From the NCBI RefSeq assembly GCF_000372725.1, contig NW_005201092.1:532564-596563 (forward strand): a stretch of DNA of 64,000 nucleotides, read 5' to 3'. The first letter of the stretch is position 1. The number at the start of each line of letters is the position of its first letter. Source of the stretch: Emiliania huxleyi CCMP1516 (taxonomy: Eukaryota). Below the pieces are notes generated by a model. The model was not told the origin of the DNA and did not search any database. It was given only the letters and a program-made list of their open reading frames with translations. Positions 8,258-51,571 of this stretch are shown here, one piece after another. The translations under genes were made by a program, and so were the position numbers.

Positions 8258-8878
8258 CGAGATGCAAGAGATCTGAGCTGCCAAACTCGGCCGCCGACAC
8301 AGCTGTACTTTTTTTTTAAGGTCCTCCGGCCAGTTTCGGGGGGCAAACCCCGCCCGGCCCCTAGAACCCCAGGTAAGGCCCAGGTGTGGCCTAGGGCATC
8401 AGAAGGGACCAAGAGGAGTCCAGTCTGAGCAATAGAGCCCATGTCTTTGCCCCCGAAGGTCGCGTTCAAATGCCCGGACGGACGTCACAGTGGTGTCCGG
8501 CCGGCGCGATCACCGAGCTGTGACGCTCAGGGAAGCCTGATGAGGTACTGGTTTCTTTGCCCAGGGCTGGCCTACGGCCCGTGCTGGATCAGCTGAGCAA
8601 GGTTTGGGGAGAATCCTATAGTAGGATCTTCAGATATTTTGACGGATGATCGAAATCACCCCGTTTTTGCCCTCTCGCAAAGGTCCAAAGTCGCCACCTC
8701 TCGCAAAGGTCCAAAGTCGATGAGTTCTCCGGTGGACCATCAATATTTACCGAGATATGGCCGCTCAAAGTCTGAGACCTGTCACAAAAGTGATGCACCT
8801 ATTGGGAGCGAGCTTAGGGGACCCCTAGGGTTCTGAGGGCCGGATTTTTTAAGACCTTTTAAGAAACGAGGAGGTTTG

Positions 8879-11402: not shown

Positions 11403-12446
11403 TTAGCGACCACCCCCCAGCGGGAGCGACGAGAGGATGTGCTCTCCTCCCTGCAGCACCGCCTCCATCAAGGCCGGCGGCGGCAGAGGCGAGGGCGGCG
11501 GCGAGGGCGGCGGCGGGGGCGCCGGTGCGCAGCCGGCGGTCGGCTTCAGCCGCCAGCTCTTTGCCCAGTGCGCCTCGCTCTGGCTGCACCTGTACGAGTC
11601 GACCCACTCCCGGTACCGCGAGACTCGGGTGTAGACGCCGGGCGTGAGCGGCTCGGCGCAGCCAAAGCCCCAGGAGGTGACTCCGACGAGCACGGGGACG
11701 CCGTCGTCGCCGACGCGGAAGAGCGGCCCGCCCGAGTCGCCCGCACACGCGTCCACTCCGCCGAGCAGGTTGCCGGCGCACATCTCGGGCCCGTCCAGGT
11801 ACGGGCAGAGCCCAAGGAAGCCAAAGATGGGGCCGCAGAGCAGGGCGTTGCACTCGCTCGAGCCAAAGGTCCTGACCTCGGCCTCGTGCAGCACGCCGGG
11901 GGTGATGGTGGTGCCGAACAGTGGGTAGTACGACGGGTCGTAGAGTGCGCCCCATCCGGCGACGGTCAGCTCATTGCCGGGCCCGCTGTTCTCGCCGTGG
12001 TCCAGCGTCGCAAAGGCGATCTGGTCGGAGCACTTGACGGCGTCGCTCAGGACCAGCAGCGCGAGATCGTTCTGGACGGTGTCTGGGTCGTACTCTGGGT
12101 GCGGCACCAGCTGAGCCACAGCCACGGTGTCGCCGCACTCCGGATTGTCCACCTCTGGGTCGAGATATTCGGGCTGGTCGGGCCCCATTGGCGTCGAAAG
12201 GGTGTGACGCGAGGACGAGACCTGGTAGACTGCGGGATTGCTGCTCTCGGTGATGCAGTGGGCCGCAGTGAGGACCAGGTTGGGCGACACGAGGCTGCCG
12301 CCGCAGAAGAACTCGCCGTCCTTCAATAGCGCAACGACAAACGGATAGCGGTTGAAGGAGGTCTCAACGCCGCCGACGACGCGCGGCCGAGGCTCCTCGA
12401 AGAGCCGCAGCGGGAGAGCGGTCGCAGCCGTCGCCAGGGAGAGCAT
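11403..12446 (-). CDS. Secreted trypsin-like serine protease (peptidase S1)
   Basis: Signal-like N-terminus, R|VVGG activation site, CGGSL, LTAAHC, DLALL, GDSGGP, SWGFGC, PGVYTRVS; Pro-rich tail. Confidence 0.95.
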   Translation of the reverse strand: MLSLATAATALPLRLFEEPRPRVVGGVETSFNRYPFVVALLKDGEFFCGGSLVSPNLVLTAAHCITESSNPAVYQVSSSRHTLSTPMGPDQPEYLDPEVDNPECGDTVAVAQLVPHPEYDPDTVQNDLALLVLSDAVKCSDQIAFATLDHGENSGPGNELTVAGWGALYDPSYYPLFGTTITPGVLHEAEVRTFGSSECNALLCGPIFGFLGLCPYLDGPEMCAGNLLGGVDACAGDSGGPLFRVGDDGVPVLVGVTSWGFGCAEPLTPGVYTRVSRYREWVDSYRCSQSEAHWAKSWRLKPTAGCAPAPPPPPSPPPSPLPPPALMEAVLQGGEHILSSLPLGGGR

Positions 12447-12546
12447 GAGTGATCAGGGGCGGTGGTTAGGAGCTCAACGAGTGAGCAGTGCAGGCAAGCT
12501 CCGACGAGCGCGACTTGGCTGCCAAGGATGTCGGTGTCCCGCCTCA

Positions 12547-16550: not shown

Positions 16551-17660
16551 TCTAATTCTGTTTCTTCTTTCTCAAAACAGGCACCGAGGACTCAGACCAT
16601 TTCGTCCGTCGAGGCACTTCTCCGAACAACGCTTTGTCGAGATCCGGAGATCTACCTCTGAAAAACCTCTCGACTCGTGCCCCCCAAAAGCGTAAAAAAC
16701 ATCTTGGAGAAGCGAATTGCGACCGTCCCTCCTCGCGCCGTGAGAGCACCAGCTTCGTCGGGCTTTTAGCCAGCGCTGGCGCTCCCCGACGATCTTTCTA
16801 CCACTTCGCCGCGTCACGAGCTTCTGGCAGCGCCTCTCTCTTCCTGCGCACGGCACGAGAGGCCGACGTGCACCTAAACACCTTCACGGATGCGTGGCGT
16901 CGCCGTCGGTGCTCTTTTGTCTCGCCGGATAGGCGTCGGTCTTTGGTCGTGCCGCACGGCGCGTACGTTGGAGAGCTCACATGCATGGCCTGTGTGTAGG
17001 CAGTCTACGCTCGGCGGGTGCGCGCTGCCTCGGCCGCTGCGATGTGCGTCTCGCCGCTGCCGCGCAGCCTTTGGCCAGCTCTTGTATTGTCGCGGCTTTG
17101 GCGAGGGCCGCGCTCGCGTGCCGCTGTCGTCGCGTGACCGAGTAGGACAGGCTGCTCTGACTGGTCGCGGAGAGCGGCCCGGCGCGAACCGGGGGCTGTG
17201 CATTCGGGAAGGAGGCGGCAGGCGCGGCGGCCGCCGGGCCGCCCGCACGGTGGGTGCGAGACTCGAACAAGAGGGCTGGCGGGGAGACGCGGCCCGCGCC
17301 TCCGTGCGGTGGCTCAGTGCTTCCGTGCCGGTGGATTGTGTGTGCTGCCACGCCACTGACTGGCCGCTTCCGTCCCAACGAATTCTCTGGGTGTGACCGA
17401 GTGTGGCCGAGTTCGTGTGCTGACTGTGTGCGCAACCGGACGACCATTTGATTCCCACCTGCACTCAACCACACTCTGCTGCACTCCTTCACTGTAACAG
17501 AGTTTGACCGATTGAGGCCGAGTGTGCTGGAGGGTGCCATCGCGTGGCAGAGCCCGCCAGAGGGCGACCGCGTCGTAAAAATGTGTAGAGTTCAACTCTC
17601 GTGAACCTCTAACGGAGCTGAGAGGAAGAGCTCCACTCTCCGCCCAATCGTCCGCAGCAG

Positions 17661-20600
17661 ATGGCTTCAGCCGCCGCCGCCGAGGAGGAGGCGACTCTCG
17701 AGGCGCTCGCGTACACGCTCATCCGCATCACGTCTCTGCTGCTGCTCGGCTACGTCTCCGCACGGCACCTCCTGCCACCCGGCGCGCAGAGCGGCATCAG
17801 CGCCTTTGTCGGCACCCTCGCGCTTCCTGCGCTGCTCTTCTCCTCCATCGCCATTCTGCAGTGGGATGCCGTCGACTGGACCATCGTGGCCGCAGTCATG
17901 CTCGCCAAGGCACTGACCCTCGCCTGCTGCGTCGGCGTCGGCGTGCTGATCACCCCTCGCCCCGCAAACGCCGGGGCCGAGATCCTCAACGGCGCCGTGC
18001 TTGCTCTCCTCGCCGTCTCTTCGGACGACCTCGGGCTCGGTCTCCCCGTGATGAGCGCGCTCTACGGCCGCGGCTCGCGCTACGTGAGCCAGCTGTTCGT
18101 CATCGTGCCGCTGCACAACCTGCTCGTCAACCCCGCCCTGCTCTCGCTCCTCGCGCTCGGCTGTGCACAGCGCTCCTCGGCCGGAGGAGGCCGCGCCGAG
18201 CTCGGCCCCATCCTGCGGGGCGTGCTGCGCGGGCTCGCCGGCAACCCGCTCGTCCTCGCCGTCCTCGCCGGCCTCGCCACCAACCTCGCAGGCGACACCA
18301 CGCCCAACCTCCCACTCCACCTCGCCCTCGACCGCTCCACCACCCACTCCACCTCGGTTTCCACCTCCCGCGAGGAGAGGCGCGACCCGAGATGCGAGGA
18401 GCCTGCTCGGAACATTCTCGGAACCTTCTCGGAGCTTTCTGACAGGCGTGGCGAGGAGGGGGCACGCGCCGACGGCGCTGCCGAGGGCGCTGGCGGAGGT
18501 CTCGTCTGCGCTTGGCGCGGCTCCACCTCCGCCACCCAGAGTGGTTCCCGCCCGCCGAGTAGAGAATAACAAGTGTGTGTGTCGTTTCTCTGGTCGTCAG
18601 GCGTCTACCCGCCCCGCCGCCAAGTGGTTTCGCCTTGCGTGCGTGTGTGATCATTCCGCTCTCTTTGCTCAGGCGACGCCTACCCCGCCACGGTGCTCGT
18701 GCTCGCGGGCATGGCCTCGGTGGGCTCCTCCCGCCCGCTGGGCTTGCACAGCCTCACGCCCCTCCAGCCACCTGCCAGGGACCCGGCTGAGGACCCTCTC
18801 CCAAGGTTGGCTCCTCCGAGCCGCTGCTGTCGGCCCGCTCGCTCGCGACTCCGGCGCCCGCCCTCGTCGTCCAAGCCCGTCGCCGGCTGTGAACGCGGCG
18901 TCTCTTCACAGCCCATCGACTGTGAGCACAGGCGCTCGCCGTCCTGCTCAAGTGCGCCGTCTTCCCGCTGGCGACGCGCACGCTCGCCCTCGCCCTCGGC
19001 CCGCTCGTGTCCGGAGCCGCGACGCCGACGGCGACGACCCGCCTCGCCCGCTCGCCGAGGAGTGGCGCGGTCGGGCCACACACCCACAAACTCACCGGCT
19101 CTCCGTACCCCGATGGCTTCAGGAGACGCTCGACTTTGCCTTCCTCTACGGCACTCTCGCCACCTCCAACGTCGCGCTCGTCATCGCCTCCTGCTACGAG
19201 CTCGCGCCAAAGGCCCATATCTCCCCATATCTCCCCATATCTCCCCATATCTCCTGCTACGAGCTCGCGCCAAAGGCCCGCAGCCGTGCTGTTGTGATGT
19301 AGCTCTACCACCGCAGTGTCACTGCTACTCGCCCCGTCGCCGTGCTGCTCCTGTGCTTGGACGCATCACCATTCTCACGCGGCGGAGATTGCCTCTTGTG
19401 ACTTGCCTAAACCTCCGCCTGTCCCCGCGCGCAGACCGTCGGCCTCGTCGCCGCCACCCTCTCCCTCAGCAAGCTCGTCGGCTTCCCGCCCGCCCTCGCC
19501 TCCGCTGCCTGCCTGCGGCCCGCGCTTCCCTCACACCTCTAGCCGTGGGTGCAGGCTTCCCGCTCCTCCTCGTGTCCGCCGCCGTCTACCAGCTCTCCTC
19601 GCCCGCCAGCGCGATCGCCGTCTCCACCAACCTCGAGCGAGCGACGCAGTTCGCCTCACTCACCCTCCGGCCTCCTCCGACCCCGCGACCCTTCCCGGAC
19701 CCTTCTCCCCGAACTCTCTCCGTAGCGGCATCTCGCTCCTCTCCTGCGCCATGGTGCTCGCCGGCGGAACGCTGCAGGGCGCGTGGCGGCCACCTGCCCC
19801 CGCGGGCGTGCGCAGGCCAGGCGGCGCCGCGAGCCCAGCGGCCACGGTCGGTTCTCTTGTGCAGTTGCTCACTGCTGCTACTACAGGCAAGGCGGCGCTC
19901 CGAGCTCGACGGCGACGCTCCGGCGGGTGGGCGTGCTGGCGGTGCGCTGCAGCGCTGCTGGTCCACAGCGACGCTCAGTCTGCTGTGAACAGCGTCTCTC
20001 TTCATGCAGCCGCCGACTGCGGAACAGGCGCTGCAGCTCTGCTGGTCCACAGCGATGCTCTGCGTGAGCGCGGATCGCCTCCGCGCCGCCGCACCGGCCG
20101 AAGCGAAGGCCGTGGCTCCAGCTTCACTTCGGTACGGACTGGACTCGCATCCCGTACCGTCTCGAAAGAATGCGCGAGTAGGTGCTCTTCGCCCTCATCT
20201 CGAGTCTGCGGTGGGCCGTCGACTCCTTCCTCGTCGCGGTCGCCGTCGCGCCGCGCCTCAGTTGCCGGGCGCAGCTGCTGGCCGCCGCTGCCGTCGCAGC
20301 CGCCGCCACGGCGCCGGTGATCGCGGCGTGGCCTGCGGTGTGGCGCGAGGCTGCGCTGCCGCAGTGGGTGCTCAGCGAGGGACACGCGTCGGCGTGCGCT
20401 GTCGCCTACCTCGCCTTCGCCCTCGCCCTCGCCGCCGCGAGCTCGCGGTCGCTCGCGCGGGCTCGCGCCGTCTCCTCTGCGAGGCGGCGGGTGGCAGTCG
20501 CCATCCACGCGACCACTGCGCTGCGGGCGGCAGGCCGCCAGTACCAGCAGCAGGAGGACGAGCCGCAGCAGCAGCCCGCCGACGAGTCGCCGCGCCCGAA

Positions 20601-21402: not shown

Positions 21403-21656
21403 GCCGTAGCCCAAGCCGTCAATAGCATTTGGGTCGGAAGCGACTGATGAACTGTGAGAGTCGTGGTTTTCGAAAATATCTCTCTCTCTCTCTGATGAAA
21501 CCGCTCCGGGGTCAGGCAGAGATCTAGGGGCAACGGGTACCGCGACGCGAGTCGTGCTAGTTGAGCCCTTGAAGGATGAGGGGGGGGAACTCCTCGGAGT
21601 TATTTTTCCGACAAGCGCCTTGGAGGTCCTCATTTTCTTCTTTCTTCGCCTGCAGG

Positions 21657-22840
21657 ATGTGTATGCACATGTTACATTGGCCGCCCACCGCATCGGCGCC
21701 CGCCTGTCTGGCCTCTCGCCAGAGCAGCTCGTCGCCTTCATCGACGAGCAGGCGCCTCTCTGGAGCGCCGCCGCAATGCGCGTGGCGGAGGAGCACGCCG
21801 CTCGGCTCGTGGAGCAGCCCGAGTGGGTGCTCTCCGAGGTCCTCCTCTCGCCGGACCTCGCCCCGCACATCCTCGCCCAGCTTCCGACCAAGGAGCACGC
21901 CGCCAAGGGGACATGCCGCGCGTGGCGCCGCGGCTGGATAGAGACGCTGAAGAAGCGCGAGAGGCCGCGCCTGGTCGTGTTCTGCGGCTACGACGGCGAG
22001 GGCGAGTTTGTCAACTCGCTAGAGCGGTACGACCCGTCCACCAATCAGTGGGGGGAGGAGGCTGTGGCCCCGATGCCGACGGCACGAAACTATTTCCGCA
22101 CGGCGGTGCTCGACGGTAAGCCGTACGCTGTGGGCGGCGAGAATAACGACGAAGGCTGCCTCAGCTCGGTGGAGCGGTACATCCGGCTGCCAATGCGTGG
22201 GAGGCGGTGGCGCCGATGGCGACGGCTCGGCAAAATCACGCCGTGGCGGTGCTCGACGGCAAGCTGTACGCGGTGGGAGGCTGCATCGACGACGAAAACC
22301 TCAGCTCGGTAGAGCGGTACGATCCCGCGACGAATGCGTGGGAGGCGGTGGCGCCGATGGGGACGGCGCGGAGTGACCATGGCGTGGCGATGCTCGACGG
22401 CAAGCTGTACGCTGTGGGCGGATTCGATGGTGGCCGCCTCAGCTCGGTCGAACGGTACGATCCGGCGGCGAACGCGTGGGAGGAGGTGGCGCCGATGGCG
22501 GAGTCGCGGGACGAAGCTCGCAGTTTCGGTGCTCGACGGCAAGCTGTACGCTGTGGGCGGGTGGGATGCCATTTACAATCGCCTCAGCTCGGTGGAGCGG
22601 TACGACCCTACGTTGGATGCATGGGAGGCAGTGGCGCCGATGGCGACGACGCGGTACAGTCACGTCGTGGCGGTGCTGGATGGCAGGTTGTACGCTGTGG
22701 GAGGCTTCAACGACGGCGACGGCGACTTCGGCACGGTCGAGCAGTACGACCCGGCCGAGAATGTGTGGGAGGCGGTGGCGCCGATGGCGACGGCGCGAGG
22801 CGCTTCTATCGCGCGGAGTCTTGATGAATGTAGTGCCTAG
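21657..22840 (+). pseudogene. F-box-like plus Kelch repeat protein with two apparent frameshifts
   Basis: Repeated AVLDGKLYAVGG...LSSVERYDP..NAWEAVAPM spread over three frames (shifts near 22180 and 22510); N-terminal VLLSPDLAPHILAQL...CRAW. Confidence 0.8.
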
Positions 22841-23053: not shown

Positions 23054-23731
23054 TCACCTGAGCACGGCGTGGACCTCTATGATCACGCCCTCCGGATCGA
23101 GAAAAAAGATCTGGTGCCAGTCGCGAGCGAACCGCGTGCCGTAGTCGGCGTACTGGACGCCGTGCGCGTCGAGGTGGCGCTTGAAGGCGTCGATGTCATC
23201 GGTGCGGAAGGCGATGTGGCCTATCGGGCCGACGCCGATCGGGTTGATGGCCTCACCGCTGCGGAAGGCGACGCCGAGGTCTCGCGTAGCGAGGTGCATC
23301 TGCATGTGGCCGTCCGTCGTGAAGCTGATGGGCACGTCCGAGCCGGCGCCCGCGGCAGTCATGCCTGTCCGCGGAAACATCTCGATCGGCATCTCATCCA
23401 TGCGCAGCACATCCCTGTAGAACTCGAGCAGGCCTGTCACCTCGCGACTCACGACGTTGATGTGGTGCAGCTTGGGCGGTGCGAAGGCATCGCTCGCGTG
23501 ACGCTCCGAGCGCAAATCGGGATTTGCCGCGACGAGCGTTTTAAGCTCGTCCTCGAGGCCATCTCGGCTCTCGCGCAGTTCCGGGTGCGCAGTCTCAAGG
23601 CTGCGCAGCTGCTGCTTGACCGATGCGAGCTGCTCCCGGAGGCGGGCGTGCGCCAGCGCTGCGCCGCTGCTTGTGCACAGGTGGCGGCCTCTCGCACTCC
23701 CGCCGCAACCGACGCGCAGTAGCGCCCTCAT
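23054..23731 (-). CDS. Glyoxalase/VOC-family protein with an N-terminal transit-peptide-like extension
   Basis: LHHINVVS...FYRDVL, GHIAFRTDD, QIFFLDPEGVIIEV; intronless. Confidence 0.85.
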   Translation of the reverse strand: MRALLRVGCGGSARGRHLCTSSGAALAHARLREQLASVKQQLRSLETAHPELRESRDGLEDELKTLVAANPDLRSERHASDAFAPPKLHHINVVSREVTGLLEFYRDVLRMDEMPIEMFPRTGMTAAGAGSDVPISFTTDGHMQMHLATRDLGVAFRSGEAINPIGVGPIGHIAFRTDDIDAFKRHLDAHGVQYADYGTRFARDWHQIFFLDPEGVIIEVHAVLR

Positions 23732-24153
23732 CGTCGTTGTCGGCGTCGCACGTTGTCGGTAGCCGACTTGCACAGCCTCTTCCTCTCGCCAGGTCGTGCC
23801 GCTCCACCGCTCCACCGCCACTGTCTCGCCAGGCGGCACGCAAAAAAGAAGAAATACTCCACGAGAAAATAGGCACCGGCCCTGCGCGCACCACTCCCTT
23901 TGTTCTCTTCTCATAAAATCGGAGGGTCGGCCCACGGGGGGACTTCGTGAACTGAAGCGACCTAACGATTTATCGATTTTATGTATTATGAGTGGCAGCA
24001 AAGGGAGTGGGCGCGCACTGGCACTAACACGCGACTCCTGCGAGGAAACGAAACATCTAGTTGAAATTGGAGAGAAGGGGGCTTTTCCTCTTTCTTTCTA
24101 AACAACGAAGGACTCGATCTCTCAAAAGACAGCTCACGCGGCTCCGTTGGGGC

Positions 24154-26260
24154 TCACGCGGCCGTCCGCATGCGCACCCTCCTCACGCCGAGGCTGACCA
24201 GCGCCTCGTCACACCTCTCCGCCTGCCTCTCCACCCCCCCCTCCGCCGTCTCTCGAGCGAGCGCCTGCAGCGCCGCAACGCCGCCGACCCGGTGCCACTG
24301 CTCAGCGCACGCAGACGAGGAGGTTGCGAGGGCGAGGAGGGCGTTGATGCTGTCTCTGCGCCAGCCATCATCCTCGGGCTGGTCCAGCCGCGAGAGGAGC
24401 AGCGAGAGGCAAGTGTCGTCGGCCGCGAGGTCGGGACAGCTGCTGGCCAGGTACACAAGGGCAATGGCAGCAGCGAGTTTGCAGTCGTCCGAGGCGCCTG
24501 CCTCCTGCGCGAGAGAGGAGAGGACCGCCACACCGCCAGCCTCGACGACACCCTCGTGCGTGGCGGGTGTTACCTCAATCATGTTGCCGAGCCGCCACCG
24601 CGGCACCACCCTTCTGCCTCTCAGTCCCATCGCGAGCCAGCGCGACGAGGACCTCGATGCCGCCGGCCGCTGCGATCGCCACGCTGTTCTCGTCGTTGTC
24701 AGAGAGGTTCCACAGCGCCCCCGCCGCACGCTCCTTCTGCCCCTCGTTCCCATCGCGAGCCAGCGCGACGAGGACCTCGATGCCGCCGGCCGCAACAATC
24801 GCCGCCTTGTTGTCGTCGTTGTCAGCGAGGCACCACAGCGCTCCTGCCGCACAATCCTTCTGCCCCTCGTTCCCATCGCGAGCCAGCGACACGAGGACTT
24901 CGATGCCGCCGGCCGCAGCAATCGCCACGCTGCTGTCGTCGTTCAGAGCGAGGTTCGCCAGCGCTCCCGCCGCATTCTCCTTCTGCGCCTCATTCCCGTC
25001 GCGAGCCAGCGACATTAAAACCTCGATGCCACCAGCCGCAACAATCGCCGCCTCGTTGTCGTCGTTGTCAGCGAGGTTCCTCAGCGCTCCTGCCGCATTC
25101 TGCTTCTGCGCCTCATTCCCGTCGCGAGCCAGCGACATTAAAACCTCGATGCCACCAGCCGCAACAATCGCCGCCTCGTTGTCGTCGTTGACAGCGAAGT
25201 TCCACAGCGCTCCTGCCGCACAATCCTTCTGCCCCTCAGTCCCGTGGCGAGCCAGCGCAATAAGCACCTCGATTCCGCCTGCAGCAGCGATCGCCACCTT
25301 GAGGTCGTCGTTGGTAGCGAGGTTCCACAGCGCCCCCGCCGCTTCCTCCTTCTGCCCCTCATTCCCGTCGCGAGCCAGCGACACGAAAACCTCGACGCCG
25401 CCGGCCGCAGCAATCGCCGCCTCGTTGTCGTCGATGTAAGCAAGGTTCGCCAGCGCCCCCACAGCGTTCTCCTTCTGCTCCTCATTGCCATCGCGAGCCA
25501 TAGCAACGAACAGCTCGACGCCGCCGGCCGCAACAATCGCCGCCTTGTTGTCGTCCTTGGCTGAGAGGTTCCACAGCGCCGCCGCGGCACCCTCCTTCTG
25601 CTCCTCATTCCCGTCGCGAGCCAGTGACACGAGGGCCTCGATCCCGCCGGCCGCAGCGATCGCCACCTTGAGGTCGTCGTTGACAGCGAGGTTCCACAGC
25701 GCCCGCACCGCATCCTCCTTCTGCGCCTCATTCCCATCCCGAGCCAGTGACACGAGGACCTCCACGCCGCCGGCCGCGGCTATCGCCACCCGGCTCTCAT
25801 CGTCGTCCCGGGCAAGCTCCTGGAGCGTTGCCGCGACGTCCGCCTTCTCGTCCTCGTCTCCAACCCGTAAGAGGGCGACGAGCGCGTCCATCCGCCTGCT
25901 GCTGGCCTCCTCTCCCGACAGCCGCTTGAGCTCTCCGAGCGCAGCGGCTTGCAGCTCCGAGGAGGCATCGCCAGCGGTCTCCACCAGCCGCGCGAAGGCA
26001 CCGCGCGGCGCGAAGATCAGGGACCACCGCTTGCACACGGCCGCGTGGCGCAGGCCCGTCTTCTCGAGCACGCACGGCGCAAGGTCCGGGTCCGCGAGAA
26101 CGTCGGTCGCGACGGCGGGCGGAGGGCTGTGGTGCGCGAGGAGCGCCTCGGCCCTCCTGTTTGCAGCGGGGCTGTCCCGCATCGCGCCGGCGGCGATCGC
26201 GATCAGGGCATCGGGCGGAAGAGCGGCGAGCCGCAGCTCGTAGCGGGCGCAGGCGAGCAT
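24154..26260 (-). CDS. F-box-like plus Armadillo repeat protein; frame break near 24600
   Basis: About 11 repeats of IAAAGGIEVLVSLARDGNEEQKENAAGALWNL (41 aa, 123 bp); N-terminal VLADPDLAPCVL...AAVCKRW; the C-terminal ARM-like segment continues in another frame to 24154. Confidence 0.85.
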
Positions 26261-26833
26261 TCGCGGCGAAAACTGTTTTTCCATCGATTTCTTGCGCATT
26301 GGCGCCCGGGCCGGCCACTCCTCCGCCGTCGCCACCGATGCAGTCCACAGGTCGACGCGGTCGTGGCTGTCGCTGCAGGCCCAGCGCATGTCAGTCGCGC
26401 TGCAGCTCGCGGCGGCGGAAGAGATTGCGACCGAGCTCAGGCCTAGACTCCCCTGCGTCACTACGTGCCTCCCCGTCTTTGTAGCCTGGTGTTTGTGCCC
26501 CGTTTGTGCCGCGTCCCGTGCCCGGAATTCATTTTATAAAGCTCCTCCACCGTCGCGGGCGGAGGCGAGCATTTCCCGGTCCGGCGCGACGCGCGAGAAT
26601 TCGTTTTTCGCCTCAGTCATTTCCTCGATTTGTGCATTCATTTCTTGCACGATTTCTTCCCTTGCCCCATTTTTTCGTCTTCGTAGGCTTGTTCATTTAT
26701 GAAGAATTTTTCTCGAGGCCTCGACCGTGTCGCCTCGGCGTTGCTCGACGGTGTTGCCTCGACAACAACAACACCGGCTTGGCGCTTTCTCCCACATCAT
26801 CCCGTCGCAGCTGGCCGGAGTTGATCCCTACAC

Positions 26834-27931
26834 ATGGCTGAAAGCCGAGCATTACCGATAATGATTCCGACGCCGGTCACCGCGCTCCTTTCGGCGCTCT
26901 TGCTCGGAGCTGCGCTGGCAGAGCCGGAGCACTGCTCCGCCGCAGATATGCCACGTGTGTCCCTCGGCGACGGCAACATGCTTCCTGCGGTAGGCCTCGG
27001 CCTTTATTATACGCCGCCCGGCGCCGTGGCTCAGGAGATCGTGCGTGAGGCGCTCCGGCTGGGCTACCGCCACCTCGACACGGCCGGCTTCTACGAGAAT
27101 GAGGCGGACGTTGGGCGCGCCGTGCGCGAGTCGGGCATACCTCGCGAGCAGATCCACATCACCTCAAAGGTGTGGCCCGAGGCGGAGGGCCGCTGGGTCG
27201 AGGACGGGTTCGCGGCCGTGCTCGACGCAGTCAACGCGAGCGTTGCCGCGCTGGGCACGCGCGCCGACCTCTACCTGATTCACTGGCCGGTCAACCCGGA
27301 TCAGCGGATCGAGTACTGGCTCGCACTCGAGGAGGCGCAGCGGCTCGGACTCGCGCGGAGCATCGGGGTGAGCAACTTTGGCGTCGCCCACCTGCAGCAG
27401 CTGATCGATTCGCCGCGCACGAGCGTGGTGCCAGCCGCCAACGAGGCCCCCTCGCCGGCGGGCGACAGGCGAGGGCGGCGGCTCACCGAGAGAGGCGCAG
27501 CTCGACCACGTAGGTTGAGCTGCACCCCTTTTTGCGAAAGGACGAGATCGAGGCCTTCTGCGCGGCGCGTGGCATCCGCCTGATCGCCTACTCCCCGCTC
27601 GCGCGCGCGCTCCGCCTCGACCACCCCTCGCTGGAGGCGGCGGCCGCGCGGCACGGCGTCTCTACTGCGCAGGCGCTCGTGGGCGAGACGGGCAAGCACC
27701 GCCCGCCACCTCCTCACGTGCTCCTGTCAACAGGTTCTGGTGCGCTGGTCCGTGCAGCACGGGTACGTGCCGCTCCCAAAGTCGGTCAGATCCGAGCGGG
27801 TGGCGCAGAATGTGGACGTCTTCGGCTTCGAGCTCTCGGCGCAGGAGATGGCGGCGCTCGACGCGCTCGACGAGCGGCTCTTCACCGAGTGGGAGGAGTG
27901 GGGGCAGCTCGACCCGACGGCGTTGCCATGA
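26834..27931 (+). CDS. Aldo/keto reductase (AKR5-like) with signal-like N-terminus, two introns
   Basis: PAVGLG, GYRHLDTAGFYENE, ITSKVW, DLYLIHWP, SIGVSNF, AYSPL, PLPKSVRSERVAQN. Confidence 0.92.
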
Positions 27932-31001: not shown

Positions 31002-34000
31002 CTAGGTTCGCGGTTGCGGTTCCGCTGTATGTGATCCGCCCCAGGCCGCCTTCAGCCTTGCCAAATTCTTCGATTGCTCGGCGCGGGAGCGGGCGCGGGA
31101 GGTGGAGGAGGCGTCCAGGCTGGACGGAGTGACGGCGGCTACGCCCGACTTCCGCACGACGGGCGGGGCGAAGCCGTAGTACTCCTCTCGGAAAGTTGTC
31201 ACGAACTGCGGGCAGCTCAGCAGCGTCGCCAGCTGGTTGCTCGCGAATGCGGCCTCTTGGCAGATGCGGCCCACGGCCTGTGAGTCGCAGACGTTAATTA
31301 ATCAACTAACTTCTTAACTGGTTAAATTAGTTAATTATATCCTGTGAGCCGCAGACGGTGACGTTGTACGTGAAGGCGGGCGACCCCTTCGCCCCGAGAC
31401 CGTAGTTGACGATTTGCCGCTGCTTCTCCTTGAGGATCACATCGAAGAGGTCCGGCCGCTCGTAGACGATGCTGCCTTCCGCCAGCGTCCCCTAACACGC
31501 GATGCAGATAGGATGCGTACCACGGTCCGAACAGAGCTCCAAACAGGTGCGGGCTCGTTGCCGACGCGGTGCGTTTGAGGCGTGCCACGCTGTCGTCGTC
31601 GGTGTCAGTGACGTAGATTGTGAAGTCGATGAAGTGGCCAAGCCGGTCTTTCCACTCGGAGGCGGTAGCCGGCTTGCCGTACAGGCTACGGTGCAGCTCG
31701 TCCACCAGCCGGTTGACCCGCGGGATGTAGCCGGCCGCTAGCCCAGCATCTCGGCAGACCCAAATCATCTTGTACTGCTCCGCGCCGAGCGAGTTTGGCG
31801 AGCGCGCCTGCCGATGCCACGAGGCGCGGAGGAGCGGGGAGGCCTGCAGCAGGCGCCACACGCGCCAAGCAGCGAGGAGCGTGCGGAGCAGAAGCTGGAG
31901 CGCCGTCGGCGAGCCGAAGTTGCCGGTGCTTTCGGACCACCACACCTGCGTGATGAATGCACCAACATCAGGGCGGGAAGACGGTATTGTGCAGTGTATT
32001 CAGAGCACCGCGTGAATACGAGGGATACGAGTACAGGGGATACAGCGGGAGTCAGCGGAAGACAGTCGAATCCGTGTGTCCTCTCGAGCGCTGGTTGGAA
32101 TACAAGAACGCGTTATTCATTCAGCTTCTAAGGCCACCGCACCGCGAGCAACGCAATGGACCCCATCGTGAAGAGTCCGTCCAGCCATGCCCAGAGCGAG
32201 CGGAGGAAGCGTGTGGGGAACGCGTAGCGGTAGACGAAGTGGAGCGAGTAGCCCGCGAGCAGCACGGCGGCGGCGACCTCGAGGGCCCTGCCCTGCCACT
32301 CCGCCCTCGCCGCCTCCGAGAGAGTCGACCACGAGAAGGCCAGGCCCAGCGACGTCACCTCGCCCAGGATGAGCAGCCAGGAGACGATGTCGAAGACGGC
32401 ATGCAAGCTCGTGTGCGTCCCTCGGCGAAAGAGCGCGCGCATGAAGGCCGACTCGTCCGCAAGGTTGGCGCGTCGGACAGCGTGCTGGATCTTTGTGGCC
32501 GCTGCTGCCCGTGCATCGTCCGCCCCGGAGAAGCGCGCCTGCCGAGGAGCCGGCACATCGACTTCGGCAATCGTCGTGGCCGCCATGCGGTCGAGCTTCG
32601 CCTTTGCAAGGGCCGCCTTGCCCACGAGAGACATGGCGCGGGCGCGCTCCTGCATCAGGGACAGCATCGGCACGACGCCGGTGCCCGTGCCGACGCCGAG
32701 CACTGCGTCGGCCCGCGCAAGATCGGCCACCGCGTAGCCGTAAGGCCCACGGACCTGCAGCGCGGCCTCGCCGCTCAGCAGCTGGGAAGTGTCTCGGAAG
32801 TGTCTCGAAGTGTCTCGGAAGTGTCTCGAAATGTCTCGGAAGTATCTCGGAAGTGTCTAGGACCTGCAGCGCGGCCTCGCCCCTCAGCAGCTGGGAAGTG
32901 TCTTGGAAGTGTCTCGGAAGTGTCTCGAAGTGTCTCGGACGTGTCTCGGAAGTGTCTAGGACCTGCAGCGCGGCCTCGCCGCTCAGCAGCTTGGCGATGC
33001 AGGCGTCTGACGCGAGCCGGCCTGTCCACGACTGGCCGGGCTTCACCTCGATCAGGAAGCAGAGGTAGTTGGCCTCGTTGCCCGACCCGATGGAGAAGGG
33101 GTGCCAGAAGGGGTCGATGCCCGGCACGCAAATCTGTGCGTACTGCCCAGCGCAGAACCGGAACGCGGCGGGCCGCTCAACACGGAGGAGGAGGACCTTT
33201 CCGGTCGAGACAGCCTCGAGCACGCGGCACCGGTGTGTGGTGAAGAAGCACCAGGCCCGGTCTGTGAGGTAGAGCGTCATGGACGCGCCAAACCACGAGA
33301 GCGTCTGCGACCTCCGGAGAGTGCCTTCGCGGACCGGCTTGTCGAAGGTGTGCACTGCTGCGACGAGGAACCTGGCGGGAGTGGGAGGGGGTGGGTATTG
33401 CCATCTCAACCGAGCGCTCTCGGTTTGCTCACATGACGAAGACGAATCCGTGCGCGATCTTGAAGAGCTCATACGGCACGCGGCCGCGGATGAACGATGT
33501 GATCAGCACGATGGCCGTTGAGACGGCAGTGACTAGCCCGGTCACGAATATCTCAGAGCGGAGCTTGGAGCAAAAGTCGGCCGGGTCGAGCCCGTGACGA
33601 AAGTCGTAGCAAATCTTTCCGAAGAAGCCGAAGAAGCCGCTGGGGGGGGGCGGGGGGGGATCAGCTGCAGATTGGGGCGCAGTTTAATCGGTTTTCCACT
33701 CACATGGTGGCGCCGATGAGGAGGATGCAGAAGGCGTAGCCGACCTGGATGTGGAACTGCATGATATGCTGAAAGGGAAAGGTCGAGCCCAGGACCTCGG
33801 TGGACAAGAGGGCGAGGAGCCGCTTGGCCATCGTCAACGGGAGGAGTGCCAGCTGGAAGAGGATGGCATGCATCTGAAGCGCGGGTTCATGGTATACAGT
33901 GTCAGTGTCAGCTGCTTCGCCTGTCTGTACACGAATATATCCCGCCAGGAGAAGCTGCAACTCACCAGGCCAAACTCAAAGGGTGGCATCAACCGTTTAA

Positions 34001-34280
34001 GCCAGTAGTTCGGGGCGCCCTCGGGCACGTTCGCGAGCTGCACGTAGTACTTGTTCTGAAAGAAATGCTGCCAGGCCACAATCGTGAGGAGCAGGTGCAG
34101 CGCTCGGAAGAGGAGCAAGCTGTACAGCACGTTGAAGCGAGAGCCGACGCGGTCCACGAAAGAGACGGACTTGACGTTATCCATCGCCAACTTTGCAATT
34201 CTGCGATTGAATTGGCGAGATGCCGCAGCACCCTCCACCGTCGTCTCCATCGCTTTCGACGCGTGTTCTGGAGACGACAT
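31002..34280 (-). CDS. NADPH oxidase / ferric reductase family flavocytochrome with a 4-TM insertion in the NADPH-binding domain; multi-exon
   Basis: FHIQVGY, IAHGF and AVHT (candidate heme His), AGQYAQI and WHPFSI (FAD), GPYG, GTGTGVVPMLS (NADPH), MIWVCRD, IYVT, GRPDL, EEYYG. Confidence 0.9.
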
Positions 34281-34370: not shown

Positions 34371-35120
34371 TCATAAGAGGGCTCCCGCGGCGATCAACAC
34401 CGCAACTCCTTTTCTGGCTACGCGCACAGACACAGTACGCGGCAGCGCCGACACGTCAACCCGCGTGTACGTCAGCGACGGGTCGCGCACGCCGCACGAG
34501 GCGCATGCGTGCAGCGGCAGCGCGTGCGCCATGCGCTCGTCGCTCCACTCGCCCAGCAGCCGCCGCTTCGTCTCGTCGGAGACGTGCACGCAGCGCTGCA
34601 GCAGCGCCGCCGTCTCGTCCTCGGGCCGCTCCAGGTCCATGACGACGTTCGTCGAGGCGTGGAAGCGCGTCTCCAGGTCGATGGCCGCCTGCTCGGCCGC
34701 GGCGAGCTTGCCCTGGTCGACGCACATGCCGCACACCGCGTGCGCCGGGCAGCCGCACTGGCCGCGTTGTGGGCGCACGGTCTTGGCGACCGCCGGCGCT
34801 GCGCGCCGGTCGTGCTGCTCACGCTGCCGGCGGCGCTGGTCGCGCGCCTGCCGATCGCGCGTGTTCGCGGCGGCTGCATCTCCTGCTCGTTTCGCTCGCA
34901 CCCGAGCGGCTGTCGCCAGGCGCTTCAGGTCGGCGGTGCTGCGCGCGCGGCCGTCGGCTCTGCACAGCCACATGTCCTCCTCCTCGGCAGGCTCGCACGG
35001 CTTGCCGTCGAACTGCGGCGGGAACCCGCGACGACGCTTCGCCCAGGCCGGGCACGATGGTGCCGCGACGAGCGGCGTCGAGGCGACGGCCATCGATGGG
35101 TCCAGAAGACTTGGAGACAC
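34371..35120 (-). other. Truncated ORF, possibly the N-terminal fragment of a Helitron-type protein
   Basis: Basic Arg-rich stretch, a C-x-C...C-x2-C cluster and LHACASCGVRD; ends abruptly just upstream of the NOX gene. Confidence 0.3.
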
Positions 35121-36149
35121 TTCTAAACCAAAAAATCAAAAAAGCGAGCACAAGTGCGTTACATGGGCATGGCCGGCGTTTCTGCACCGAACGATCTTAC
35201 TTTCGGTCTATCGAAAGTGTTGATCGATAAAATTCTTTTTTGGCTGTTTGGCGTGTGGTGTAACGTCTGTTTGTGCGGGGCGGTGAGCACTGGATAGGGT
35301 CGATTCCGCATGGTACGGGAGAACGGGACACGGGACCCCTCGATCGTCTCGCCCTCTCCCTTGCTGGTGTGTTCATGGGGGGGGTCATAACAAACACGGT
35401 ACAGGACACTGTGCCTAGTTTGCCTCCCTTTGCAGGAGAGGACGGGGCAAAGGACGACGCGGCTGTGTATGCCTCCCTGTTAGCGGACGCGTGGCTGTGT
35501 GTGTGTAGAGAGAGAGAGAGAGAGATCGAGTGTATGCCTCCCTGTAGGAAGCGGCGTGCGCGGCGCACAAAGTCAAAGTCGCTCCACAAAGAGGGGCCAA
35601 GCCTGCCTAGTATGAAGTATGAGGCCCTCGAGCTTGGATATCGGGCTTGCTACGAAGCTGCTCGATTGCATCTGGGGACGCCGCTCGCCGGTCACAGCAG
35701 GGCGGCGTTAGAAGGATTCATAGGTGAACTCGCAGCTCGCGGGGAGCGCGGACACCGGAAATTTTGTGAATGAACAGCGTCTAACCGAGAAAAAATCGGG
35801 GTCGACGTCACCGCTGACGTCACGCTGACCGCTCACGCTGACCGCTCACCTCTGTCCGATCCGTTCGTCCATATGCAGGTGGCACCGCTCCTCTCCTCCC
35901 CTGCGGTGCCCACCTTTTCAAAGTTCCGGGAGCCTCCCGCCGCGCTCTCCGAAGAGTGGCGCAGCTGGTCGACCGCGAACTCCGTGAGCCTCCCTTCGAC
36001 CGTCGGCCCCCGGACTCGACATTTTCGCGGCCTGCGCCGGAGAGTTGGCGGTCGTGCGCTGGGTGGTAATCGTCATCTGTCTGCTCTGCTGTGCTTCTCG
36101 CTCGTGCGTCCTTGCAACTTGTGCTGACCTCCTTTCACCTCCTGCTCTC

Positions 36150-36250: not shown

Positions 36251-36880
36251 TTTATTTATGTCCATCCCGGGCTTGCAGATGCCCTAAAATTGCTCAAAAT
36301 GGACCCAAATCGCTTCAAATTCGCTTGGATCGCTTCAAAATCGCTCGGAATCCGCGAATAATTTGATTTCAGCCACCATCTAGGCGACCTTTGGGACAAA
36401 TGTCGCTTTTGGAGGTGAAAATCAGTGATCAATACCTCAATATGTTGTCAATAGTTAGAGGGGATGCTGTCAATAATCAATATCAATAGTTACAGGGGCG
36501 AGAATCAATCTTTCCCGTCGTCCTTATACTGGTTTCGTGTGCGTAACCTGGTGCGTAGACAGGCGCAGTTATACAGCAGATATGAAGGCCGGCCCTCACG
36601 CCCTGCCCCGCACTTACGCAGCATAAGTTTACCAATTCAAGCCCATCGACGACCGCGTTACGCATGACGTATCATGTATCCGCATACACACGTAGCTACC
36701 CCTTCCTGGCGCCACAGCCTGGAGGCGCTGACGTACTCTGGATACGCATTATGTTTCTGCACTCGCCAAAACGCCCGCGACGATTGCGTGGCCAATGATT
36801 TCAGGGGCCCACGCTGCCTTGTGATAATCCAAATCGAATCCCAATTGTCCAACTCGCAAAAATCTGCGTGCGTCCGCTGC

Positions 36881-37790
36881 ATGATGGCCCCGCTGCGGAC
36901 CGCGTCGTCAGAGCGCCTCGTGTTGATCCCGGCCACCCTCAAGAACAGCACGACTGGCTACAAGAACGTGAACTTCGACCGCCGCAATATGAAGTTCCAG
37001 GTGCATGTGCGGGATGGCGGCAAGCGTGTCCACCTCGGCTACTTCGACACCGCCGAAGAGGCGGCCATCGCCTACGCTCAGTCAGAGTGCGGCCGTGCCG
37101 ACGCCGCCAAGCTGCTGCAGCCCCGCCCCGCTCCCACTCCCGCTGGTGCCGAGGCGATACGGCAGGCGGAGAGGGAGGGCCTCACCCTCACCACCAACAG
37201 CAGCAGCAACAGCGGCTACAAAGGCGTCTGCTACAACCCGAAGCAGCGAGGCAGCAAGAATTCTTAAGATACAAGCCTCTCTCACAGCACACTGGCACGA
37301 CAAGGGCGCAGACTGGCGCGGACTGGTACACACACAGGCTCACCACCGGAGCCGCCTAAGCGACTCCGTTAAGAACGGCAATGCACTCCGCACCATGCAC
37401 AATGCCGCTCTCCCCGCACGCTAGCTCGAGGCAGCAAGAAGTACAAACTGGAGGTGAGTGAGGGAAGGCGGCAAGCAAGTCAGCCTCGGCCTCTTCGCCA
37501 CCGCCGAGGAGGCGGCTCTCTTCTACGCCCGCAGGGAGGCAGGCAAGGACACGCTCGCCAGCGATCTCACTGCGACGCCGCCGCCGCCGCCGCCGTCCTC
37601 AACCTCTGCGGAGCTGCCAGTGTACGAGCTCAGCATTCTGACGCCTGAGCAAATGGCCGCCAATACGACATATAGTCCACCGTCCAATTTGGACTATAGT
37701 CGAGCGCGTCGGAGAGGTGTTTGGAGACCAGCCCTAGCGGCAGCGCCAACTTATGGCAGCCCTAGCGGCAGCGCCAGTGCGCGCACATAA
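36881..37790 (+). pseudogene. Tandem AP2-domain protein disrupted by a retroelement insertion and a 4-nt duplication
   Basis: TGYKNV...RVHLGYFDTAEEAAIAYA; second domain SGYKGV...[insertion]...QVSLGLFATAEEAALFYA. Confidence 0.8.
37261..37426 (-). mobile_element. 5'-truncated non-LTR retroelement insertion with a 14-bp TSD
   Basis: cgaggcagcaagaa at 37247-37260 and 37427-37440; the insert matches 40529-40695. Confidence 0.9.
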
Positions 37791-51471: not shown

Positions 51472-51571
51472 NNNNNNNNNNNNNNNNNNNNNNNNNNNNN
51501 NNNNNNNNNNNNNNNNNNNNNNNNNNNNNNNNNNNNNNNNNNNNNNNNNNNNNNNNNNNNNNNNNNNNNNN
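51472..51571. other. Assembly gap (100 N)
   Basis: Run of N. Confidence 1.

What the first reader, a model, noticed from the sequence alone, without database searches (positions are those of the whole stretch)
31840..32510. NADPH oxidase with a built-in voltage-sensor/Hv1-like four-helix domain and an IQ-like motif
Seen: between GTGTGVVPMLS and MIWVCRD of the NADPH-binding domain lie AAATKIQHAVRRA (IQ-like) and four helices: HAVFDIVSWLLILGEVTSLGL, EVAAAVLLAGYSLHFVYRYAF, FLRSLWAWLDGLFTMGSIALLAV and, after intron 32142-31946, QLLLRTLLAAWRVWRLL. Known: some algal NOX proteins (e.g. Chondrus crispus Ccrboh, diatom homologues) carry four extra TMs at this position. Hv1 proton channels have an acidic S1 selectivity residue, an S3 F..LD motif and S4 RLWRVARI, and Hv1 provides charge compensation for phagocyte NOX2. 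Inference: the insert is a VSD/Hv-derived module (S1 Glu, S3 WLD, S4 WRVWR), making a NOX with its own proton-shunt or voltage/calmodulin control. The usual second TM3 His (14 residues after FH) also appears absent.
Basis: partly seen in the sequence, partly recalled or inferred. Interest (0 to 1): 0.85.

Follow-up and report, generated by a model that had tools for sequence, protein, structure and literature searches.

The report
NADPH oxidase carrying a voltage sensor
This expressed coccolithophore gene encodes an NADPH-oxidase-like membrane enzyme whose four long-unexplained extra helices match the voltage-sensor domain of proton channels and voltage-sensing phosphatases, so the enzyme is likely tuned by membrane voltage or pH and may carry its own proton leak.

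Summary
The minus-strand gene (34280-31002, 8 exons, 840 aa) is spliced as one transcript in contigs of three studies. It matches Emiliania huxleyi EMIHUDRAFT_469863. A 205-residue insert splits the NADPH domain at NOX2 residues 418-421. Four extra helices in algal NOX are in print with function unknown; ten searches found no paper calling them a voltage sensor.

They are homologous to one. The insert passes Pfam Ion_trans (27.3 bits, cut-off 25). A family profile hits Hv1, TPTE2 and Ci-VSP at E 2e-6 to 1e-4, and the top 45 PDB hits of an insert profile all carry voltage sensors. Residues map onto Hv1: E499=D112, Y536=F150, D559=D174, W598=W207, R599=R208, R602=R211. R205 is missing in 86 of 86 homologues, and His replaces E153.

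Fold searches agree but do not discriminate. The family spans haptophytes, diatoms, chlorophytes, Chromera, a euglenid, a choanoflagellate and an ichthyosporean. About half lost the S1 acid together with R208.

Best guess: a voltage/pH sensor coupled to the NADPH domain (0.45). Rivals: proton shunt 0.28, structural relic 0.22. The IQ-like motif is conserved but non-canonical. One heme His is absent family-wide, so superoxide output is unproven.

The parts
31002..34280 (-). NOX/ferric-reductase-family gene, 8 exons (34280-33966, 33873-33704, 33639-33433, 33371-32963, 32754-32143, 31945-31562, 31491-31342, 31277-31002), 840 aa from the first ATG; the start codon is not established
   Evidence: Junctions from run contigs; translation; same gene as P0003 / EMIHUDRAFT_469863
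33251..34130 (-). Six-helix ferric-reductase membrane domain; His146, His225, His238 match NOX2 His101, His209, His222; no His at the His115 or His119 places; Thr195-Gly196 kept; extra conserved His62, His72, His107
   Evidence: Pfam Ferric_reduct E 1.9e-8; alignments to NOX2, NOX5, DUOX1; column counts
32734..33211 (-). FAD-binding domain (HPFS motif), interrupted by intron 4
   Evidence: Pfam FAD_binding_8 E 8.4e-9
32755..32962 (-). Intron 4, 208 nt: two units of an 11-bp tandem repeat, each followed by a copy of the last 27 nt of exon 4
32668..32691 (-). First NADPH-binding motif GTGTGVVP
   Evidence: Sequence; aligns with the NOX2 motif
31838..32649 (-). Insert, residues about 403-607: stalk helix, IQ-like helix, S0-S4
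   Evidence: P0003 220-370 aligns to NOX2 267-421 and 576-607 to NOX2 418-449; helices
32458..32490 (-). IQ-like helix (IQHAVRRANLA), non-canonical
   Evidence: Pattern hydrophobic-Q-xxx-R/K in 29 of 40 acid-group homologues vs 7.6 in shuffles; canonical IQ in 0 of 86; no Pfam IQ hit on exon 5 or among the 25 of 28 families shown for 40 homologues
32326..32406 (-). S1; Glu499 (32361-32359) at the place of Hv1 Asp112
   Evidence: HMM alignment to 5oqk and 3wkv; coordinates
32221..32301 (-). S2; Tyr536, His539, Arg543 at the places of Hv1 Phe150, Glu153, Lys157
31934..32196 (-). S3, ending across intron 5; Asp559 (32181-32179) at the place of Hv1 Asp174; Leu570 at the place of Asp185
31946..32142 (-). 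Intron 5 (GT..AG, 197 nt, phase 0) between S3 and S4
   Evidence: Skipped in 7 of 8 runs laid
31844..31903 (-). S4; Ala596, Trp598, Arg599, Arg602, Gln605 at the places of Hv1 Arg205, Trp207, Arg208, Arg211, Asn214; one further Arg592 off the 3-residue register
31173..31837 (-). Rest of the NADPH-binding domain (helix PLLRASW two residues after S4, WVCRD, VCGS, EEYYG)

Best explanation
The gene encodes a NOX-family flavocytochrome with an Hv1/VSP-type voltage-sensor domain inserted into the helix after its first NADPH motif, and that domain likely acts as a weak voltage or pH sensor that tunes electron export. Shown: the gene is spliced as modelled; the insert sits at NOX2 418-421; it is homologous to S1-S4 voltage sensors with Hv1 residues in register. 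Predicted by the model: a long helix leaves the NADPH motif, an IQ-like helix and S0-S1 follow, and S4 returns into the next helix of the NADPH domain after two residues. Inferred: electron export depolarises the membrane and acidifies the cytosol; the one or two S4 arginines would shift against the S3 aspartate (and, in this subtype, the S1 glutamate, with His539 adding pH sensitivity); the short S4 link would pass that shift to the NADPH domain, much as the S4 linker does in voltage-sensing phosphatases (recalled). The IQ-like helix may add calmodulin control in place of the EF-hands that this group lacks. A proton leak through the same domain is compatible with this and is scored as a rival. 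Odds: homology about 0.93; sensor coupling as the main role about 0.45.
For: Homology: Pfam Ion_trans 27.3 bits on the cut-out insert. Profile of 100 family members, not picked by residue, hits 3wkv 2.1e-6, TPTE2 4.8e-6, human Hv1 6.2e-6, Ci-VSP 1.3e-4 over the insert. The insert profile gives 57 voltage-sensor proteins among 60 rows shown, the first 45 without a break. Foldseek lists 37 voltage-sensor proteins among 44 rows shown. Shared core: S3 acid in 80 of 86, at least one S4 Arg/Lys in 85 of 86, S2 aromatic in 81 of 86. These are kept also in the 46 members without the S1 acid, so the common role of the domain is not D112-type proton conduction. The spacing from S4 to the W-x-x-R motif is tight (interquartile 30-34.5 and 32-34) while the N-side spacing runs from 62 to 262. 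In the full model (pLDDT 87.6) S4 ends at 573 and the NADPH-domain helix starts at 576 (P0003 numbering). Ci-VSP also has an Asp at the S1 place and gives no proton current (PMC10377628, passages).
Against: No functional data. Only two arginines lie in register and R205 is absent in 86 of 86; AcHv3, which also lacks it, is only weakly voltage dependent (PMC10911540, passages). The S2 counter-charge Glu is His here and an acid in only 7 of 86. Structure alone does not discriminate: best Foldseek E 0.29, TM about 0.5; in VIA-align soluble four-helix bundles rank first (Z 12.0) above Nav1.5 (Z 10.5), Hv1 (Z 9.2, rmsd 3.1, 107 aligned) and Ci-VSP (Z 9.1, rmsd 4.2, 122 aligned), with 13 voltage-sensor rows of 50. 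The profile of 27 Gly-group inserts finds no voltage sensor in PDB, and only 3 of 22 and 0 of 27 single inserts hit Ion_trans at E up to 1. A tight S4 link may only reflect folding of the split domain. Buried charge pairs can be purely structural.
Confidence: 0.45

Rival explanations
1. Built-in proton channel: the domain conducts H+ like Hv1, so one polypeptide exports the electron and the compensating proton, at least in the subtype with the S1 acid.
For: This protein keeps the Hv1 core in register: E499, Y536, D559, W598, R599, R602; 9 of 86 homologues have this set with Trp, 24 with any aromatic. Glu can replace Asp112, and D112-R208 is called a crucial pair (PMC4969798, passages). AcHv3 lacks the first Arg and still carries proton-selective current. 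S1 acid and R208 go together: 39 of 40 with the acid, 3 of 46 without; P0006 and P0056 in the E. huxleyi clade lack both. The aromatic at the Trp207 place is Hv-like; Ci-VSP has Val there.
Against: The RxWRxxR signature is not met. No Asp185 equivalent in this subtype (1 of 40), and E153 is His. The co-occurrence rests on few events: independent-pairs test p 0.5. 46 of 86 homologues lack the acid yet keep the domain. Ci-VSP has the same acid-Arg pair without proton current. E. huxleyi already has two Hv genes (PMC10377628, PMC9171652, passages).
Confidence: 0.28
2. Structural relic: an old voltage-sensor domain now serves as a membrane anchor or packing partner, like p22phox or DUOXA, and its charges only stabilise the bundle.
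For: S4 has lost R205 everywhere and R208 in half the family. Three divergent members (P0061, P0138, P0147) have hydrophobic inserts that the insert HMM does not find at E 1e-3. C. crispus NoxD appears by eye to have Arg at the S1 acid place. These enzymes have no known regulatory subunits (PMC1940245, passages).
Against: Buried charges are kept across distant lineages (S3 acid plus an S4 Arg in 79 of 86). The Gly clade keeps a different outer acid, at the Asp185 place, in 32 of 46, which looks like re-wiring of pairs rather than decay.
Confidence: 0.22
3. Chance likeness: four ordinary membrane helices that resemble voltage sensors through composition.
For: Fold searches are not discriminating. 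Scores are modest (24-30 bits). The ESM Atlas hits to ion-transport clusters score 0.80-0.81, which shuffled proteins reach a third of the time.
Against: Among 177,635 PDB sequences the first 45 hits are all voltage sensors and the first other membrane protein comes at E 0.14. Three overlapping family profiles agree. Six diagnostic positions fall in register on all four helices.
Confidence: 0.05
4. Separate question: the enzyme is not a superoxide producer but a one-heme or re-ligated reductase with another acceptor, because the outer-heme His of TM3 is missing.
For: No His at the NOX2 His115 place in 66 of 66, and Phe at the His119 place in 63 of 66. Zhang et al. judged chlorophyte preNOX lacking this His unlikely to make ROS (PMC3591440, section 14). 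Superoxide output of E. huxleyi CCMP 374 was DPI-insensitive (PMC12684733, passages).
Against: His222 equivalent kept in 78 of 80 and Thr-Gly in 68 and 70 of 70; three further His are conserved (48 of 54, 52 of 55, 56 of 59) and could supply the ligand. Best sequence and fold matches are NOX5, NOX2 and DUOX1. CCMP 371 was DPI-sensitive.
Confidence: 0.35

Closest known systems
Algal NoxD / preNOX (Chondrus crispus Ccrboh; Kawahara 2007 PMC1940245; Zhang 2013 PMC3591440)
   Same: No EF-hands; four extra membrane helices between the first and second NADPH sub-regions; Thr-Gly dipeptide. By eye the C. crispus insert also shows an S3-like RFF..LD stretch and an S4-like RxxR.
   Different: C. crispus keeps both TM3 His; this family does not. 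The papers give the extra helices no function and no homology. Homology of the red-algal insert to this one was not computed.
Hv1 voltage-gated proton channels (human 5oqk, mouse chimera 3wkv; Aplysia AcHv3)
   Same: S1 acid, S2 aromatic, S3 Asp, S4 WRxxR and no fourth Arg, all in register. Like AcHv3 it lacks the first Arg.
   Different: Embedded in an enzyme; no R205; His for Glu153; no Asp185 in this subtype; S4 continues into the NADPH domain; conduction untested.
Voltage-sensing phosphatases (Ci-VSP 4g7v, TPTE2 9c49)
   Same: A pore-less S1-S4 domain joined through S4 to a cytosolic enzyme domain; similar profile scores.
   Different: Four S4 arginines there, two here; appended to a phosphatase there, inserted into the middle of an oxidoreductase domain here; Trp in S4 here.
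Phagocyte NOX2 with Hv1 as separate proteins
   Same: Same flavocytochrome architecture and the same need for charge compensation.
   Different: Here both modules are in one chain; no His115 or His119 equivalents.

Membership tests
NOX/FRD flavocytochrome | Ferric-reductase membrane domain, FAD domain, NADPH domain in order | tested here: met
   Pfam; PDB sequence and fold matches to NOX2, NOX5, DUOX1
NOX/FRD flavocytochrome | Four heme His (NOX2 101, 115, 209, 222) | tested here: not met
   Three present; His115 place is Ala, His in 0 of 66; substitute ligand possible, not tested
ROS-generating NOX group (Zhang 2013) | Thr178-Gly179 dipeptide | tested here: met
   T 68 of 70, G 70 of 70
ROS-generating NOX group (Zhang 2013) | His119 | tested here: not met
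   Phe in 63 of 66; algal preNOX are reported to lack it too
ROS-generating NOX group (Zhang 2013) | Superoxide production | not testable with these tools
   Needs an enzyme assay
Algal NoxD / preNOX | Four extra helices inside the NADPH domain, no EF-hands | tested here: met
Algal NoxD / preNOX | One clade with C. crispus and P. yezoensis NoxD | not tested
   No protein named as red-algal turned up; the C. crispus sequence was only read in a supplement
Voltage-sensor domain (Ion_trans S1-S4) | Sequence homology over S1-S4 | tested here: met
   Pfam 27.3 bits over cut-off 25; PDB profile hits
Voltage-sensor domain (Ion_trans S1-S4) | S1-S4 fold | tested here: inconclusive
   Four-helix model pLDDT 93.2; Foldseek top rows are voltage sensors but E 0.29 or worse; VIA Z 9-10.5, tied with or below generic bundles
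Voltage-sensor domain (Ion_trans S1-S4) | S2 motif aromatic-xx-acid-xxx-basic | tested here: not met
   YxxHxxxR here; acid in 7 of 86; some marine Hv1 also lack it (PMC4969798)
Voltage-sensor domain (Ion_trans S1-S4) | Voltage-driven S4 movement | not testable with these tools
   Needs gating currents or fluorometry
Hv1 | Acid in S1 at Asp112 | tested here: met
   Glu499; 40 of 86 homologues
Hv1 | RxWRxxR in S4 | tested here: not met
   AxWRxxR; first Arg in 0 of 86
Hv1 | Asp185 in S3 | tested here: not met
   Leu570; acid in 1 of 40 of this group, 32 of 46 of the other
Hv1 | Proton-selective current | not testable with these tools
   Needs patch clamp or flux assay
VSP/TPTE | Phosphatase domain after S4 | tested here: not met
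   NADPH domain follows S4
IQ motif | IQxxxRGxxxR consensus | tested here: not met
   0 of 86 canonical; relaxed form 10 of 40 vs 0.9 in shuffles; no Pfam IQ hit shown
IQ motif | Calmodulin binding | not tested

The most novel reading that the evidence does not exclude
An ancient, widespread eukaryotic NADPH oxidase fused with an Hv-type proton channel: one chain exports an electron and lets the compensating proton out, the natural fusion of the NOX2-Hv1 partnership. A diatom-containing branch re-wired the same domain from the D112-R208 pair to a D185-R211 pair.
Probability: 0.28. Interest if true: 0.93.

Novelty: new variant of a known kind. Interest (0 to 1): 0.78.

Why it matters
It gives an identity to the four extra helices of algal NOX, whose function Kawahara et al. 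2007 called unknown, and turns that into named mutations to test. Pore-less voltage sensors are known on a phosphatase and a sperm Na+/H+ exchanger (PMC10651576, passages); an oxidoreductase would be a new host. If it conducts protons, it answers in one protein the old question whether NOX enzymes have built-in proton channels (PMC2229569, search listing only). It also bears on pH control and extracellular electron export in coccolithophores and diatoms, and supplies 86 natural variants of the Hv1 core.

Tried and rejected
No genome is held for this window, so paralogues were not counted. My first exon models were wrong at introns 1 and 6; the run contigs fixed them. Alternative splicing through the 27-nt copies in intron 4: contigs of five runs skip all 208 nt. 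A single-sequence search of PDB finds no voltage sensor; profiles are needed. The Gly-group profile finds none either and is tied in only through hhalign to the other group (98%, E 5.9e-14). Fold searches are not discriminating. The ESM Atlas result (0.81) is a lead only. Co-evolution of S1 acid and R208 is not shown once the tree is taken into account (p 0.5); the Fisher value ignores kinship and is not used. The last homologue search gave no named red-algal protein. Ten literature searches gave no paper that links the NOX insert to a voltage sensor; the library lacks most subscription papers, and automatic domain annotations (InterPro, TCDB) could not be checked. No complex prediction was run. 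One full-length alignment script timed out. Heme-His distances could not be measured because model coordinates are not returned.
Full report
Gene. The finding lies in a minus-strand gene of 8 exons, 34280-31002, giving 840 aa. Contigs of runs X6 and X7 each carry all eight exons in one piece; X5 does so with intron 3 retained (three studies; RNA status is guessed by the tool). X13 and X14, on record as seawater RNA, also skip the S3-S4 intron, while X15 runs through introns unspliced. The database protein P0003 is the same gene, named EMIHUDRAFT_469863 of Emiliania huxleyi CCMP1516. It starts 32 residues later and lacks two short pieces near the C-terminus. Residue numbers below follow the 840-aa model; P0003 numbers are 32 lower.

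Position of the insert. P0003 220-370 aligns with NOX2 267-421 and P0003 576-607 with NOX2 418-449. About 205 residues are thus inserted in the helix after the GxGxxP motif. The full AlphaFold model (100 sequences, pLDDT 87.6) shows a long stalk helix, the IQ-like helix, four further helices, and a return into the NADPH domain two residues after the fourth. Its best fold matches are NOX2, NOX5 and DUOX1.

Homology to voltage sensors. Pfam Ion_trans matches the insert: E 0.0071 on exon 5 alone, 6.6e-5 in P0003, and 27.3 bits over a cut-off of 25 when cut out. A profile of 100 family members, chosen by coverage and not by residue, hits the mouse Hv1 chimera (2.1e-6), TPTE2 (4.8e-6), human Hv1 (6.2e-6) and Ci-VSP (1.3e-4) over the insert. 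A profile of 22 inserts (20 with the S1 acid, so a selected set) returns voltage-sensor proteins in its first 45 rows and in 57 of 60 shown. The alignment to human Hv1 gives E499=D112, Y536=F150, H539=E153, R543=K157, D559=D174, A596=R205, W598=W207, R599=R208, R602=R211. The Hv1 numbers are my reading of the printed alignment against the numbering in PMC4969798 (passages). Scores do not separate Hv from VSP as the donor; the aromatic at the Trp place and the lack of a fourth Arg lean to Hv.

Results against. The 27 Gly-group inserts (of 38 then in hand) give no voltage-sensor hit in PDB or Pfam; they are tied to the other group by hhalign at 98%. Only 3 of 22 and 4 of 40 single proteins of the acid-rich sets hit Ion_trans at E up to 1. 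The insert model is confident (pLDDT 93.2), but Foldseek's best E is 0.29, although 37 of 44 rows shown are voltage sensors. VIA-align ranks soluble four-helix bundles first and lists 13 voltage-sensor rows among 50, Hv1 at Z 9.2. The fold is consistent, not diagnostic.

Family. The representative search returned 150 best hits of 8,933. Of 155 proteins scanned, 98 match an insert HMM and 86 fill all four key columns; the other 12 were dropped from counts. The HMM was built from 60 of them, so the columns lean towards agreement. Counts of 86: S3 acid 80, S2 aromatic 81, aromatic at W598 83 (Trp 18), at least one S4 Arg/Lys 85, first Arg 0, S1 acid 40. The R208 equivalent is present in 39 of 40 with the acid and in 3 of 46 without. 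The 46 mostly have Gly in S1, keep the R211 equivalent (43) and carry an acid at the Asp185 place (32). On a core tree of 74 rows (12 fragments left out) the Gly type is mainly one nested clade, and the paired test is not significant. Of 30 proteins looked up, source names gave Sphaeroforma, Tetraselmis, Ploeotia, Cylindrotheca, Attheya, Chromera, Acanthoecidae, Ochromonadaceae, Cymbomonas and Pavlovales; the rest are unnamed. Three divergent members have inserts the HMM misses.

Coupling. The spacing from the last S4 Arg to the W-x-x-R motif has interquartile ranges of 30-34.5 and 32-34 in the two groups; the N-side spacing runs from 62 to 262. This fits a mechanical link but does not show one.

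IQ-like helix. Hydrophobic-Q-xxx-R/K occurs upstream of S1 in 29 of 40 acid-group members (7.6 in shuffles) and in 8 of 46 others (7.2 in shuffles). A relaxed IQ occurs in 10 of 40 (0.9 in shuffles); the canonical form in none. It is a real conserved feature of the acid group; calmodulin binding is a guess.

Heme site. His146, His225 and His238 are kept in 66 of 66, 74 of 74 and 78 of 80. The second TM3 His is absent in 66 of 66. His62, His72 and His107 are kept in 48 of 54, 52 of 55 and 56 of 59, and Thr-Gly is kept. Loss of this His is reported for green-algal preNOX (PMC3591440, passages and section 14). Whether the enzyme makes superoxide is open; DPI results for two E. huxleyi strains differ (PMC12684733, passages).

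What is known. Four extra helices in algal NOX are described in PMC5016757 (passages), PMC3591440 and PMC1940245 (passages), the last stating that their function is unknown. The word 'voltage' occurs in neither PMC5016757 nor PMC3591440; I did not search PMC1940245 for it. In the supplement of PMC1940245 (search passages) the C. crispus insert shows, by eye only, an RFF..LD stretch and an RxxR before the NADPH domain resumes, Arg at the S1 acid place, and both TM3 His. Part 10 of that file held no algal sequence. Passages of PMC10377628, PMC10651576, PMC4892433, PMC9322803, PMC9171652 and PMC5298346 mention no NOX-sensor fusion. AcHv3 is the precedent for a proton channel without the first Arg (PMC10911540, passages). 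Herve 2006, Anderson 2011 and Laohavisit 2015 were not seen and may bear on priority. Ten searches found no earlier identification. An earlier scan note on an Ostreococcus gene files the layout as known NoxD; two other look-ups were empty.

Verdict. A real, expressed member of the algal four-helix-insert NOX group whose insert is an Hv/VSP-type voltage-sensor domain (about 0.93). It works most likely as a sensor coupled to the NADPH domain (0.45), possibly as a proton shunt (0.28), or as a relic (0.22). It is not a member of Hv1 by signature, nor a canonical four-His NOX. Novelty: new variant of a known kind. Interest 0.78.

Noticed in passing
window 32755-32962 (intron 4): Two units of an 11-bp tandem repeat, each followed by a near-exact copy of the last 27 nt of exon 4, so the flank stands three times. 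P0173, a close relative, reads as having a single unit. It looks like an intron made by insertion with duplication of the flank.
   Followed up: partly
window 31561-31492 and 31341-31278: Non-canonical introns: GC..AG and GA..AG are the only placements of the observed joints that end in AG. The public model P0003 misses both and so loses the CGS NADPH motif.
   Followed up: yes
window 33432-33372 (intron 3): Retained in contigs of X1 and X5, which both carry a change at 33429, the fourth base of the donor. Retention stops the protein after residue 231. A possible dead allele; not checked against DNA of the same strains.
   Followed up: partly
window 31960-32115 (intron 5): High-copy repeat: many unrelated contigs lie on it in most runs laid.
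   Followed up: no
window 34097, 34067, 33870 (His62, His72, His107): Three extra His in TM1 and TM2 are conserved across the family that lacks the second TM3 His; one may be a substitute heme ligand.
   Followed up: partly
P0023, P0031 and related Gly-clade proteins: The diatom-containing clade has Gly at the Asp112 place, mostly Met at the Arg208 place, but Asp at the Asp185 place and Arg at the Arg211 place.
   Followed up: partly
P0055, P0062, P0065, P0076: A clade with Sphaeroforma and Ploeotia members keeps the canonical S2 motif Y-xx-D/E-xxx-R, the most sensor-like S2 in the family.
   Followed up: no
window 34371-35135 (-): 254-aa Cys/His-rich frame just upstream of the gene, no Pfam hit; by recall it resembles the N-terminal part of a Helitron protein.
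   Followed up: no
window 36668-37267 (+): AP2 domain (E 6.2e-7, below cut-off), possibly part of a mobile element.
   Followed up: no
window 5048-8398, 11403-12452, 17622-18569, 21458-22312, 23054-24097, 24575-26533, 26825-27583, 62459-63556: Neighbours with Pfam hits: CUB, trypsin, Mem_trans, Kelch, glyoxalase, ARM repeats, aldo-keto reductase, tRNA pseudouridine synthase. None is linked to the finding. 44 of 143 long frames were scanned.
   Followed up: no
window 56802-60635 (+) and 2194-4233 (+): Open frames of 1277 and 679 aa with no Pfam hit at E 0.001.
   Followed up: no
window 51472-51571: Assembly gap of 100 N.
   Followed up: no
window 31102: 18-nt in-frame insertion in the low-complexity C-terminal tail in run X10.
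   Followed up: no
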